A DNA stretch of 9,540 nucleotides, from the IMG/VR virus record IMGVR_UViG_2537562192_000011. The stretch is one strand, 5' to 3'. Positions 3,001 through 6,000 of this stretch are shown one piece after another. The stretch comes from a virus. Its lineage: Duplodnaviria; Heunggongvirae; Uroviricota; Caudoviricetes. Position numbers: made by a program. How positions within the stretch are numbered: the first letter of the stretch is position 1; each line of letters starts with the position of its first letter.

Positions 3001-6000
3001 CGCGCCGACCCGCCCCGTGGACAGCCCCCCCCCACCAGGAGTACCTACAAAAAAGCCGGATTGCTCCGGCTTCTGTCACTCGTTGCTTAAAACGGTATGT
3101 TATCCCCGTACGGATCATCATTCCCCGCCTGTTGTTTTGCCCTGTTCAGTGCGTCAGTAGCCTGCCCCTGCTGGCCTTTTTTACCGCCCGGTCGCGCCGT
3201 TCTCGCACTGATTACGCTGTCTGCGATAACCTGCCAGCCCTGCCGCGTTTCGCCGTTCTGGCCTGTCCACTGGCTTACCTGCATGTTACCCGCCACGCTC
3301 ACCAGCTCGCCTTTGCGGTGTTTTGCCAGTGCGTCGGCCTGTCTGCCAAACGCCAGGACGGATAACCACATCGTCGCCGTTCCGTCATCAGCCTGGCTGC
3401 ATGTCAGGGGAACCGCCATACTCGCCATCGTCATTTGTGTGCCCTTGCTGGTGGTCTTTAACTGTGGGTCAGCCACCAGCCGCCCGTAAGCCGCTATCTG
3501 TGCTGTCATGATTCCACCTCTACGTTTTTAACGTTGATGGTTGTCACCTGTTCAGCTTCCGCAATCTCCCGCTCTGTCAGCGTGGCAAAATTTGCCGCCG
3601 TCGTGGTCATGAATGCGCTTATCAGTTCGGGATGTGCTTTCGCGTATCCTTCCCCCGCGTGGCGGTCTATCGTTCTGATTGCCACCTTTAAAGCGTGCTC
3701 TGTCATGTCTAACGCGCGATATTTCGGTTCTGTTCTGTCTCTGCGTTTTTTGAGTGATTTATTAAATTTCCCTGAAGTGTGCATATTTATTTTTACCCCC
3801 TCGTTTAAAAAGTTTTGAGTTGTGCCTCCCCTTGTCTACCTTATCTACCTTAGTGGCCCTCATGCCAGTAATGGCGCGGCTTTCAGCGGGGTAGAGTGCT
3901 TTTATCCGCTATCTACCCCGTGTCTACCTCCCTGTCTGATTCAGGTAAAATCAGGTAGAGAGGGTAGATAGTGGGTAGACAGTAAAAAAAGGCTATCTAC
4001 CTAACTTAATGCACTGAATTAAATGTATCTTTCTTTACTCAGGTAGACAGGGTAGACAGCAATTACAAAAAATTATAAAAACGCGTCGCACTCGTCTGTT
4101 GTTATTGCGTTAGTCTGCGTTACTCCCTTAACTTTCCGCGTAATATATTCATGTCCGTAAACTTTCGCGGCTGGCTTCATAGCCTTGCCAAAGTCATTTA
4201 CGTTTAGCGGTTTGCTCCTGCCTGCGTACGCCATAAACGCCAGATAGACGCGGTAAAGGCTGTTTCTGGTCGTGTACTTCACTGAATCGCCACCGCCGCC
4301 CATCATCAGGCCGCGTGCTTCCTCCAGAAAATTCAGGAACTGGCAAAACTCAATAACCGGATCCGTCTGTTGCTTTATTGCCAGAGCTTCATCACCGTCA
4401 CGCTGTTCCAGTAGTAAAGCCCGTGCTTTCTCAGAGTCGGTAAAGTTCGCCAGCAATCGGCGGATAATGACAGGGATTTCAGCCGCAATCTTTTCCGGTA
4501 GCTCCCTGTCTTTTTCGGCCTCACTGACGATATTGTCGAAACGGAAAATCACGCGACGACGTGCCACACCTCCGGCCCGTTCGGTGAATATCATCGGGTT
4601 GTTGTTGGTCGCCAGCACCACCGCCCTGATTACCGCCGTAAAACGCTTTTCATATTTCGGGTTAATTTCCACGGGGTCACCGCCCGTGATTTTCTTGATG
4701 CCCGTTCCTTCGCCTGTATATTTCGGCTGGTCAGCCAGGACGATAAGGCGACTCCCGACAACCTGCGCACGTCCACCAGCATCATCAAGCGATGTCATTT
4801 CAGCGCTTACCGTGTTCTGTTTCCCTGCCAGAAGGCTGGCTATGTGTGTGAATGTACTTTTACCGCTCCCGCCGTCTCCGGTGGCCTCAATAAACATCTG
4901 CCAGTCGTACCGGTTCGCCATAATCATGTACAGCGCGGCACATATCCGCATCATCTTGCGCGGGTCTTTTCCGGCTGCGTGCTCAAGCCATTTATGAAAG
5001 TTTGGCGCGTTATCGCGGATGTTCTCCCCTGGTGCTGGTGGCGTGTACTCAATACCGTTGTGCGTGGTGATCCAGTTCTCCGGCGTGTGCGGGGAAAATT
5101 CCCCCGTTTTCAGGTCAAGCGCACCATTGGCAAACGGCAGCAAATCGCCGGACGGCTCGCCCATTGGTTCGGCAATAACTTTTAACGCTTCCACGGCGTT
5201 ATTGATTACGCGCTTGCTGAAAGTGGCCCTGTGCTCTGAATAGATCGCCACCATTTCGCGGCTAAGTTCCATTGTGCTGACCGGACACCATACCCCGCCG
5301 CGCCATACGTGAACGATTTCACTTTCAGGATGCACGCAAACGCCATCAAATCGTCCGGCAAGAAGTTGAGCGCGCTCACTGTCCGCCATCTGCGAAAGTT
5401 GCGCCTTTTGCTTTACAGGAAGCTCAATAACCAGCCCATCAGAAAGATTCTGGCGCTCACTGGCCAGATATTCGCGCCAGTTCTCCACCTTCTGACCGTG
5501 CATACCATCAGGGTAAAAATTTGCATCCTGTACGCCTGCCGCCGCCAGCTTCTGACCAATCGCCTTTATCATTACTGGCGCAAGATATCCGGCCCTGAAT
5601 ATGCGCACGGATTTTCTGCCTTCCGGCACAATTTGCAGCTTATCCAGTTCTGATAACTGCTGCTCCCCAAGCCACACAGGAGGCTCATTATCTCCGGCCA
5701 TACGCGCGTCATGTTCCTGCCATTGTTTCGCGTGTGACCAGGCATCACTACCCGCAAAAATAATGACTTCTGTTTCTTTGTGTTTTATGCCGCGTGGCTG
5801 CTGTTTTACGTTCGGTGCCAGTTTCATTTTTTGCCCCTGAATCCGTTAATCATGTTTTTCATCTTCTGAATATTGGCGCGTGCTTTCTCCCTGCTGGTGG
5901 GCACGTTACGCGGTACTGCCTGCACAAGAGAAAAATCACGCCGGAACTGATAAACAGGCATCACGCAATCATATTCGTAACCTTCACGGCGGTAAGTTAC

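What the first reader, a model, noticed from the sequence alone, without database searches (positions are those of the whole stretch)
3087..3509. Short SSB-like protein with a conserved DIPF-type C-terminal tip encoded by the satellite
The SSB C-terminal tip is the docking site for many host replication and repair proteins. A satellite-encoded short SSB (140 aa, tail ...DNIPF) could support the element's own replication at the adjacent iterons, or compete for host SSB partners during helper infection.
Basis: partly seen in the sequence, partly recalled or inferred. Interest (0 to 1): 0.5.

Follow-up and report, generated by a model that had tools for sequence, protein, structure and literature searches.

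The report
Satellite-encoded single-stranded DNA-binding protein
The ORF is a genuine, already-annotated single-stranded-DNA-binding protein carried by a common E. coli phage satellite (a close relative of the model island EcCICFT073), sitting between the satellite's replication origin and its packaging site; it is ordinary in kind, although nobody has tested what it does for the satellite.

Summary
Observation confirmed: window 3087-3509 (-) encodes a 140-aa protein ending ...DDPYGDNIPF. It passes the curated cut-offs of Pfam SSB and TIGR00621. Its model is an OB fold plus a disordered tail, and the best solved-structure matches are all bacterial SSBs. It is under purifying selection (dN/dS 0.09-0.28), and the acidic ...IPF tip is conserved across homologues.

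The window is a ~10-kb E. coli chromosomal island of the Gram-negative PICI type. Its Pri-Rep is 99% identical to that of the model satellite EcCICFT073, which has the same pri-ori-small ORF-ssb layout. RefSeq already names this exact protein "single-stranded DNA-binding protein". Matching DNA occurs in 1758 of 5426 complete E. coli genomes. One paper already lists SSB among PICI replication gene families.

The lineage is PICI/MGE-specific: 26% identical to host SSB and at most 31% to anything in 50,697 phage records. It always follows a primase/helicase, whatever the type.

Most likely role: an accessory replication factor that coats satellite ssDNA and recruits host SSB partners. It is probably dispensable for origin firing. 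Competition or interference roles are untested. Novelty is low and interest modest.

The parts
3087..3509 (-). ssb coding sequence: 140 aa plus stop. OB domain is about residues 1-102 (nt 3204-3509), disordered linker about 103-130 (nt 3120-3203), and acidic/hydrophobic tip DDPYGDNIPF is residues 131-140 (nt 3090-3119).
   Evidence: Pfam SSB and TIGR00621 above curated cut-offs. AF2 model and Foldseek matches to SSBs. Conservation pattern. dN/dS 0.09-0.28 for the OB part. RefSeq WP_000126664.1 is named 'single-stranded DNA-binding protein'.
3506..3784 (-). 92-aa ORF of unknown function (PHROG 1231). Its stop overlaps the ssb start (ATGA), so the two are probably translationally coupled.
   Evidence: PHROG 1231, E 4e-49, with no Pfam, NCBIfam or PADLOC match. 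The EcCICFT073 counterpart is 70% identical. It is not conserved upstream of ssb in more distant elements.
3832..4059 (.). Replication origin: ten GGTAGAYAG iterons in both orientations around an AT-rich stretch (about 4003-4040).
   Evidence: 10 of the 12 window matches fall here, against 1.66 expected in the whole window and 0 of 200 shuffles reaching 12. Repeats also found. The region is 94% nt identical to the EcCICFT073 region downstream of pri. The published PICI ori layout matches (PMC6092414).
4073..5827 (-). Pri-Rep replication initiator/helicase: 584 aa with D5_N, DUF5906 and Pox_D5 domains, and the P4-family primase C-terminal region.
   Evidence: It is 99% aa identical to EcCICFT073 Pri-Rep.
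3047..3076 (-). Terminator-like hairpin (GCCGGA-GCAA-UCCGGC followed by U6) starting 11 nt after the ssb stop. It probably ends the early/replication transcription unit.
   Evidence: RNA fold. The same 24 nt follow perC in EcCICFT073. The consensus scan did not list it and its fold z-score is weak, so this is an inference.
2886..3053 (.). Segment homologous to the cos region of lambdoid/Stx phages, probably the satellite's packaging site. It is context for ssb, not part of the gene.
   Evidence: 90% nt identity to phages 1720a-02 and CP-1639, and 74% to mEp460. In those phages it lies between the lysis genes and the terminase genes, or at the end of the linear genome record.

Best explanation
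The gene encodes a functional bacterial-type SSB. It has an N-terminal OB domain that binds ssDNA, a short disordered linker, and a C-terminal acidic ...IPF tip of the kind that docks SSB-interacting proteins.

It belongs to a lineage carried by Gram-negative phage-inducible chromosomal islands (PICIs) and related small elements of Enterobacterales. There it is the last gene of the early/replication block, in the order pri-rep, iteron origin, small ORF, ssb.

Proposed mechanism:
1. A lambdoid (probably Stx-type) helper induces the island, and the unidirectional early operon is expressed.
2. Pri-Rep opens the origin at the iterons.
3. The satellite's own SSB coats the unwound strands. Through its IPF tip it brings host replisome and restart factors that normally bind host SSB to satellite DNA. 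The named candidates (Pol III chi, DnaG, PriA) come from general knowledge of E. coli SSB.
4. This supplements host SSB at a time when helper and satellite replication create a large ssDNA load.

What is shown: SSB family membership, fold, tip conservation, purifying selection, gene position, and linkage to replicases.

What is inferred: ssDNA binding, oligomerisation, tip-partner contacts, timing of expression, and benefit to satellite replication. It is probably an enhancer rather than an essential initiation factor.
For: Family and fold:
- Pfam SSB and TIGR00621 are above their curated cut-offs.
- The AF2 model shows an OB domain plus a disordered tail.
- The 50 listed PDB fold matches are all bacterial SSBs.
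- Three of the four classical ssDNA-stacking aromatic residues of E. coli SSB align with identical residues: W54/W48, F60/F54, W88/W81 (with the E. coli sequence verified).

Selection:
- dN/dS is 0.09-0.28 over the OB domain.
- The tip D-x-IPF is invariant or nearly so, while the linker carries indels.
- An acidic tip ending in PF is kept in 10 of the 13 relatives compared, across Enterobacterales genera.

Context:
- In 29 of 31 loci with this SSB clade, the ORF picked as the large same-strand ORF just upstream of ssb matches replicative primase/helicase families, though of several unrelated types. These are Toprim + Zn-ribbon + DUF927, D5_N/DUF5906, RepA AAA_25, and Prim-Pol/VapE.
- The model PICI EcCICFT073 has the same order, and here ssb lies about 320 bp from the iterons.
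- Mageeney et al. 2023 already class SSB with Primase and DUF5906 as the PICI 'Replication' gene families (PMC10111431).
Against: - No experiment on any PICI SSB was found.
- For EcCICFT073, the cloned rep gene plus ori alone maintained a temperature-sensitive plasmid in DH5alpha (PMC6092414). The SSB therefore appears dispensable for origin function, and host SSB is available.
- The ssb cassette is not co-inherited with a given initiator or origin. Against EcCICFT073, pri is 97% and ori 94% nt identical, but ssb is only 79%/58%. The same SSB allele (96%) sits behind a RepA helicase in strain ST130. This argues against any specific partnership and leaves only a generic role.
- E. coli SSB W40 and H55 are not conserved; the aligned residues are A40 and L49.
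- The last 7 residues, YGDNIPF, differ from host FDDDIPF at three positions, so the partner spectrum may differ.
Confidence: 0.62

Rival explanations
1. Interference or competition. The satellite SSB acts mainly against the helper. Its IPF tip would titrate host SSB-interacting proteins, or the helper's own SSB-tail-binding proteins such as the Red-beta/RecT annealase. Alternatively it would form non-productive filaments on helper ssDNA. Either way, helper replication or recombination drops to the satellite's benefit.
For: - The tip is conserved but variant: YGDNIPF here against FDDDIPF in the host.
- Red-beta needs the last 7-9 residues of E. coli SSB, and single changes in an SSB tail can switch RecT compatibility (bioRxiv 10.1101/2020.04.14.041095).
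- PICIs are known to interfere with their helpers (PMC6092414).
- The lineage has no close relative in the phage collection searched, which is compatible with a satellite-specific adaptation.
Against: - The known EcCICFT073 interference was investigated through other genes, and ssb is not mentioned in those papers.
- The gene sits in the replication block rather than with the packaging/interference genes.
- Strong purifying selection on the whole OB domain is what a working ssDNA binder would show.
- There is no direct evidence.
Confidence: 0.13
2. Recombination or concatemer role. The SSB works with helper or host recombination functions to turn satellite circles into the concatemers that cos packaging needs, rather than acting at the origin.
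For: - ssb lies directly upstream of a cos-region homologue.
- EcCICFT073 is described as packaged from concatemeric DNA into full-size capsids (PMC6092414).
- SSB tails are docking sites for annealases.
Against: - Being next to cos reflects the module order of the element, not function.
- In distant relatives ssb keeps its link to the replicase while the genes downstream of it differ from locus to locus.
- No annealase gene was found in the island.
Confidence: 0.08
3. Defence-related role. The SSB would act as a decoy that masks satellite or helper ssDNA from SSB- or ssDNA-sensing defence systems, or as a component that sensitises such systems against other phages.
For: Phage SSBs are reported triggers of Retron-Eco8, AbpAB, Hna and DRT10 (titles and abstracts listed). 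Satellites often carry defence cargo.
Against: - No PADLOC model matches the SSB or the neighbouring small ORFs tested.
- The position is in the replication block, not in an accessory-gene slot.
- No partner effector gene is adjacent.
Confidence: 0.05
4. Dedicated subunit of the satellite initiator. The SSB would be an obligate partner of Pri-Rep, comparable to the polymerase-SSB primase pairs of SCCmec-type elements.
For: It lies immediately downstream of a primase/helicase in nearly all loci. A precedent exists for MGE primases that need a small OB-fold partner (PMC10061031).
Against: - The same SSB clade follows at least four unrelated replicase architectures.
- The same allele is found with Pri or with RepA.
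- Sequence divergence is uncoupled from pri-ori.
- rep plus ori suffice for plasmid maintenance.
- It has a canonical free SSB tip rather than a replicase-docking surface.
Confidence: 0.04

Closest known systems
SSB of the model Gram-negative PICI EcCICFT073 (RefSeq WP_000126698.1, E. coli CFT073 NC_004431 1384538-1384948)
   Same: Orthologous position in the order int, alpA-like HTH, Icd-like, DUF4222, Pri-Rep, ori, small ORF, ssb. It is 71% aa identical and shares the MTAQI start and the DDPYGD-x-IPF tip. The neighbouring Pri-Rep is 99% identical.
   Different: The linker is replaced: RRKTTGTQGNQPPAGG there, against GQQGQATDALNRAKQQAGN here. The tip is DDIPF there and DNIPF here. In CFT073, perC follows ssb and the capsid module is lambda E/D-like. 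Here perC is absent and the capsid gene is a ClpP-protease/MCP fusion.
E. coli chromosomal SSB (P0AGE0; PDB 1EQQ/1EYG)
   Same: Same family and fold, with an OB domain, a disordered linker and an acidic IPF tip. W54, F60 and W88 equivalents are kept.
   Different: Only 26% identity over 100 residues. It is 140 aa against 178 aa, and its linker is roughly half as long and is not the Gly/Gln/Pro-rich host type. W40 and H55 are not conserved. The last 7 residues are YGDNIPF against FDDDIPF. It is carried on an inducible island rather than being an essential housekeeping gene.
SSBs of conjugative plasmids and of temperate phages (for example the annotated SSBs of Pseudomonas phage F116-like and staphylococcal phages)
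   Same: They are MGE-encoded extra copies of a bacterial-type SSB with a host-like tip. From general knowledge, plasmid SSBs can substitute for host SSB and are non-essential helpers of element DNA metabolism.
   Different: No close relationship. The best phage match is 31% identity among 50,697 records. Plasmid-database matches above 60% are in small non-mobilizable replicons or in elements with the same primase-ssb layout, not in conjugative leading regions.
Polymerase-SSB primase pairs of SCCmec and related Bacillota elements (Rice 2023, PMC10061031)
   Same: A small OB-fold protein encoded beside the replication enzyme of a mobile element.
   Different: Those OB proteins are obligate subunits that ordinary sequence searches do not detect. 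This one is a canonical PF00436 SSB with a free C-terminal tip, and it pairs with several unrelated helicase/primase types.

Membership tests
Bacterial SSB family (Pfam PF00436 / TIGR00621) | Sequence match to the family profile above the curated threshold | tested here: met
   PF00436 scores 60.8 bits against a cut-off of 26, E 1.4e-16. TIGR00621 scores 63 bits against 53.95.
Bacterial SSB family (Pfam PF00436 / TIGR00621) | OB fold (five-stranded beta-barrel with a capping helix) | tested here: met
   The AF2 model has strands at 3-11, 16-19, 25-36, 44-54, 69-82 and 88-101 and a helix at 55-62, with pLDDT 79-90. The 50 listed Foldseek PDB matches are all bacterial SSBs, with target-normalised TM up to 0.82.
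Bacterial SSB family (Pfam PF00436 / TIGR00621) | Aromatic ssDNA-stacking residues (E. coli W40, W54, F60, W88) | tested here: inconclusive
   W48, F54 and W81 align with W54, F60 and W88. W40 aligns with Ala. Three of four are kept, and binding itself was not measured.
Bacterial SSB family (Pfam PF00436 / TIGR00621) | Disordered linker followed by a conserved acidic tip ending in (I/L)PF | tested here: met
   pLDDT is below 50 for residues 104-140. The linker carries indels, while D136 and F140 are invariant and I138 and P139 are kept in at least 90%. Tip counts among the 120 listed homologues: DNIPF 56, DGIPF 19, DDIPF 20, DEIPF 11.
Bacterial SSB family (Pfam PF00436 / TIGR00621) | Homotetramer, ssDNA binding, and tip-mediated binding of partner proteins | not testable with these tools
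   These need biochemistry or multimer modelling. The residue equivalent to E. coli H55 is Leu.
Gram-negative PICI (EcCICFT073-type phage satellite), for the element that carries the gene | int, alpA-type regulator and pri-rep transcribed unidirectionally, in an island of about 10-20 kb at its own att site | tested here: met
   All the named genes (int, alpA-type HTH, Icd-like, DUF4222, pri-rep, ssb, capsid) are on the minus strand; two small annotated genes between Icd-like and the HTH gene lie on the plus strand. The island sits between yejO and tRNA-Pro/yejM. A 16-bp direct repeat occurs 10,085 bp apart at the two ends. The gene order equals that of EcCICFT073.
Gram-negative PICI (EcCICFT073-type phage satellite), for the element that carries the gene | [quoted passage not shown] | tested here: met
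   Ten GGTAGAYAG copies in 3832-4059, in both orientations. The region is 94% identical to the EcCICFT073 ori region. The published description is quoted.
Gram-negative PICI (EcCICFT073-type phage satellite), for the element that carries the gene | Carries helper packaging signal and/or capsid-related late genes, but no full set of virion genes | tested here: met
   A cos-region homologue lies at 2886-3053. A single protease/MCP fusion gene is present, with no portal, terminase or tail genes in the island.
Gram-negative PICI (EcCICFT073-type phage satellite), for the element that carries the gene | Helper-phage-dependent induction, replication and high-frequency transfer | not testable with these tools
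   This has been shown experimentally only for EcCICFT073 (PMC6092414). It is inferred here from 99% Pri-Rep identity.

The most novel reading that the evidence does not exclude
The PICI SSB lineage could be a satellite-specific conflict tool rather than a spare SSB. It is at most 31% identical to any phage SSB in the collection searched and 26% to the host SSB, and its tip differs (YGDNIPF against host FDDDIPF). The altered tip and short linker might give it a selective partner spectrum. For example, it might recruit host replisome and restart factors to satellite DNA while failing to support, or actively sequestering, the helper's Red-beta-type annealase or host exonucleases. That would bias replication and recombination resources toward the satellite in Stx-phage-carrying E. 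coli.
Probability: 0.12. Interest if true: 0.55.

Novelty: already known. Interest (0 to 1): 0.22.

Why it matters
About a third of complete E. coli genomes carry this gene pair, often in several copies. Here it sits in STEC strains, on a satellite whose cos region and capsid gene point to Stx-type lambdoid helpers.

If the satellite SSB measurably boosts satellite replication or alters helper biology, it would be a widespread and so far ignored factor in satellite-helper dynamics and in Stx-phage output. It would also be a natural experiment in how SSB-tip variation re-wires the SSB interactome.

As it stands, this is a correctly recognised, already annotated accessory replication gene. The value of this check is to place it precisely between ori and cos of an EcCICFT073-type PICI, and to show that it travels with replicases of any type.

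Tried and rejected
- **Alternative reading frames.** The plus-strand ORFs 2988-3365, 3097-3489 and 3323-3511 over the same DNA have no Pfam match, while 755 homologues support the minus-strand frame. Rejected.
- **A conserved partner in the upstream 92-aa ORF.** It is conserved only in close relatives (70% in CFT073). In other genera the ORF just upstream of ssb is unrelated or absent. It has no Pfam, NCBIfam or PADLOC match. Rejected as a general SSB partner.
- **A defence system.** No convincing PADLOC match for the SSB or the small neighbouring ORFs tested; the only hit was a marginal Cas8g match (E 6e-4) to the 67-aa plus-strand ORF 7429-7632.
- **Structured RNAs.** There is no Rfam match in the window at gathering thresholds.
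- **Phage origin.** No phage record has a match above 31% identity, so capture from a known helper is not supported.
- **Terminator.** The consensus scan found no minus-strand terminator after ssb. Folding shows a GC hairpin plus U6, but its z-score of -1.7 is weak, so it is reported as an inference only.
- **att sites.** A seed of 14 found nothing. A 16-bp repeat was found by direct comparison of the two ends and remains a candidate only.
- **Literature.** Four searches and six papers gave no functional study of a PICI SSB.
- **Representative search.** It gave only clade size: 11 clusters at E<=1e-30 and 335 at E<=1e-10. It carries no context.
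Full report

Yes. The minus-strand ORF 3087..3509 is 140 aa: MTAQIAAYGRLVADPQLK...NDDPYGDNIPF. The sequence shows a GAGGTGG Shine-Dalgarno 5 nt before the ATG. The ATG overlaps the TGA of the upstream 92-aa ORF (ATGA), so the start is well supported and the two genes are probably translationally coupled.

Profile matches:
- Pfam PF00436 (SSB): 60.8 bits, E 1.4e-16, against a gathering cut-off of 26, covering residues 5-99.
- NCBIfam TIGR00621 'ssb': 63 bits against a cut-off of 53.95.
- PHROG 44 (single-strand DNA-binding protein): E 3.5e-39.
- phmmer against PDB sequences: 26 SSB structures, best Thermus SSB at E 6e-11 and E. coli SSB at E 2.7e-5.

An AlphaFold2 model built on 41 diverse homologues (alignment A1) gives a confident beta-barrel with one helix for residues 1-100 (pLDDT 79-90). 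Residues 104-140 are unstructured, with pLDDT below 50. The 50 matches listed by Foldseek against the PDB are all bacterial SSBs, with E down to 5e-9 and target-normalised TM up to 0.82. The antisense ORFs have no family match, and 755 database homologues lie in this frame.

**2. Anatomy of the protein**

Against E. coli SSB (my recalled sequence was verified as identical to PDB 1EQQ chain A), identity is only 26% over 100 residues.
- The equivalents of W54, F60 and W88 are kept, as W48, F54 and W81.
- W40 aligns with Ala, and the tetramer-interface H55 aligns with Leu.
- The linker, about residues 103-130, is roughly half the length of the host linker and has a different composition.
- In the family alignment the OB core is highly conserved and the linker carries indels and replacements.
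- The tip is fixed: D136 and F140 are invariant, and I138 and P139 are kept in at least 90% of sequences.
- Among the 120 listed homologues the last residues are DNIPF (56), DGIPF (19), DDIPF (20) or DEIPF (11).
- In the more distant relatives from other Enterobacterales genera, an acidic stretch ending in PF is kept in 10 of 13. The exceptions are two Rosenbergiella sequences ending PEF and one Pluralibacter sequence ending FDGL.
- Nei-Gojobori dN/dS for the OB part is 0.09-0.28 in 13 pairwise comparisons.

This is the conservation pattern of a working SSB whose tip is used.

**3. What carries it**

The window is 100% identical to chromosomes of three human STEC-type E. coli isolates. The island lies between yejO and tRNA-Pro/yejM. 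A 16-bp direct repeat sits at the two ends, 10,085 bp apart.

All the named genes are on one strand; two small annotated genes between the Icd-like and HTH genes lie on the other. Their order is:
- integrase
- AlpA-type HTH regulator
- Icd-like protein
- small ORFs
- DUF4222 protein
- a 584-aa P4-family 'primase' (D5_N, DUF5906, Pox_D5)
- a 288-bp gap
- the 92-aa ORF
- ssb
- a 433-bp gap
- a small ORF
- a ClpP-protease/major-capsid fusion
- a 93-aa ORF

.

The model Gram-negative PICI EcCICFT073 has the same order, including a 136-aa SSB (WP_000126698.1) after a small ORF downstream of Pri-Rep. Pri-Rep is 99% identical between the two. The SSB is 71% identical and the small ORF 70%.

The gap after pri holds ten copies of GGTAGAYAG in both orientations within 3832-4059. 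Only 1.66 are expected in the whole window, and none of 200 shuffles reached the observed count. The copies surround an AT-rich stretch. This is the published PICI origin layout (PMC6092414), and the region is 94% identical to the CFT073 sequence.

Downstream of the ssb stop, an RNA hairpin GCCGGA-GCAA-UCCGGC followed by U6 starts 11 nt after the stop. The same 24 nt occur in CFT073 after perC, a gene that is missing here. Immediately beyond it, window 2886-3053 is 90% identical to lambdoid/Stx phages 1720a-02 and CP-1639. In 1720a-02 that segment lies between the lysis genes and the terminase genes, and in mEp460 it lies at the end of the linear genome record. It is therefore probably a cos-region homologue. 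The ssb gene thus sits between the satellite's ori and its probable packaging site.

**4. How widespread and how linked**

The ssb plus small-ORF DNA matches 1758 of 5426 complete E. coli genomes, with up to 6 places per genome, nearly all chromosomal. RefSeq names the product 'single-stranded DNA-binding protein'.

No phage record among 50,697 has a protein more than 31% identical. Plasmid-database matches of 49-71% are in small non-mobilizable replicons or in elements with the same primase-ssb layout.

One-per-species genomes give 32 loci. All are in Enterobacterales genera except one 25%-identity match in a Rhodobacteraceae genome and a doubtful MAG contig. In 29 of 31 loci examined, the ORF picked as the large same-strand ORF just upstream of ssb matches replicative primase/helicase families, but of different architectures:
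- Toprim_3 + Zn_Ribbon_Prim + DUF927: 17-20 loci
- D5_N/DUF5906/Pox_D5: 10-11 loci
- RepA AAA_25: 1 locus
- Prim-Pol/VapE: 1 locus

.

In strain ST130 an SSB 96% identical to this one follows a RepA-family helicase instead of Pri. Against CFT073, nucleotide identity drops from 97% (pri) and 94% (ori) to 76% (small ORF), 79% (ssb OB part) and 58% (ssb tail). The SSB is therefore a stable member of the replication block, but it is exchanged independently of the initiator and origin. That argues for a generic role in ssDNA handling and against a specific initiator partnership.

An exhaustive search of cluster representatives shows a modest clade of short SSBs: 11 clusters at E<=1e-30 and 335 at E<=1e-10.

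**5. Mechanism**

Best-supported reading (confidence about 0.6): this is an accessory replication SSB. After helper induction the early operon is expressed, Pri-Rep melts the iteron origin, and the satellite SSB coats the displaced strands. Through the IPF tip it recruits host proteins that normally dock on host SSB. The specific partners (chi, DnaG, PriA and others) come from established knowledge of E. coli SSB and were not tested here. Host SSB may well be limiting at this stage.

It is probably not essential. For EcCICFT073, the rep gene plus ori alone maintained a temperature-sensitive plasmid (PMC6092414). I infer, but cannot verify, that ssb was not in that clone. The published mutant set (int, alpA, pri-rep, c1499, c1500) does not include ssb.

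Rivals:
- Competition with, or sequestration of, host or helper SSB-tail binders. Red-beta needs the last 7-9 residues of E. coli SSB and single tail changes alter RecT compatibility, and the tip here differs at three of seven positions.
- A role in concatemer formation for cos packaging.
- A defence-related decoy or trigger role. Phage SSBs trigger Retron-Eco8, AbpAB, Hna and DRT10, but there is no PADLOC match here.
- A dedicated primase subunit, as in SCCmec Pol-SSB pairs. The module shuffling contradicts this.

None of these can be excluded without experiments, but the position and linkage data favour replication support.

**6. Comparison with what is known, and novelty**

The protein meets the testable defining features of the bacterial SSB family: profile match, fold, and a disordered linker with an acidic IPF tip. 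Aromatic residues are three of four. Oligomerisation and binding are not testable here.

The element meets the testable features of a Gram-negative PICI. Helper dependence is inferred from near-identity to EcCICFT073.

The exact protein is already in RefSeq with the correct name, its orthologue sits in the model PICI, and Mageeney et al. 2023 list 'Primase, SSB and DUF5906 families' as the PICI replication category (PMC10111431). The finding is therefore correct but already known in kind.

**7. Verdict**

Observation confirmed and interpretation supported. Novelty: already known. Interest about 0.2.

The most novel reading not excluded is a satellite-specific SSB whose variant tip biases host or helper partner use in the satellite-helper conflict. 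I put it at about 12% probability, with moderate interest if true.

Noticed in passing
window 2886-3053: This non-coding segment just downstream of ssb is 90% nt identical to lambdoid/Stx phages 1720a-02 and CP-1639, and about 74% to mEp460. In those phages it lies between the lysis and terminase genes, or at the end of the linear genome record. It is probably the satellite's cos site, and it points to Stx-type lambdoid helpers.
   Followed up: partly
window 540-2429 (-): The island carries a 629-aa ClpP-protease/major-capsid fusion (NF045540, 889 bits). EcCICFT073 carries lambda E/D-like capsid and decoration genes at the same place. The best phage relatives (52% aa, 99% coverage) are the same Stx/lambdoid phages that share the cos-like segment. 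Its role, whether capsid-size redirection or interference, is unknown.
   Followed up: partly
window 3041-3086 compared with L038 12950-13260: Relative to EcCICFT073, the perC gene that follows ssb is absent here, yet the same 24-nt hairpin that follows perC in CFT073 follows ssb directly. Identity to CFT073 falls sharply between ori (94%) and the small ORF/ssb (76-79%), which marks a recombination boundary.
   Followed up: partly
window 7979-8005; L001 21904-21914: A perfect tandem repeat, TCCGGTGTAT x2.7, lies just upstream of the alpA-like gene. A related TCCGGTGGTAT lies beside tRNA-Pro, just outside the candidate att repeat at the integrase end. In L001 there are 7 matches against 1.4 expected. 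These could be AlpA or integrase arm-type binding sites.
   Followed up: no
window 7035-7799 (-): A 254-aa ORF with no Pfam or PADLOC match, not annotated by RefSeq. RefSeq instead calls two small plus-strand genes there, a YlcI/YnfO family gene and a hypothetical one. The long ORF is probably spurious.
   Followed up: partly
L003 (OW969629.1, 10.6 kb, Enterobacter) and L004 (NZ_CP033626.1, 22.9 kb, Klebsiella): Small circular 'plasmid' records carry the same SSB clade directly after a large primase-helicase. The Klebsiella record also has DUF4222, Icd-like, PerC, an integrase and a 'tape measure protein'. These may be excised satellites or satellite-like replicons deposited as plasmids. In L003 the SSB is truncated at 104 aa with no tip.
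   Followed up: no
L032 (JAHEOE010000100.1): A 5.7-kb contig binned as 'Candidatus Paceibacterota' encodes an SSB 61% identical to this enterobacterial PICI protein. This is probably a mis-binned or contaminant contig.
   Followed up: no
L001 11697-11712 and 21782-21797 (outside the window on both sides): A 16-bp direct repeat, AAACGTATAACTAAAA, is a candidate att core. It places the island ends about 300 bp left of window position 1 and about 240 bp right of position 9540, and roughly 130 bp from tRNA-Pro rather than inside it.
   Followed up: partly
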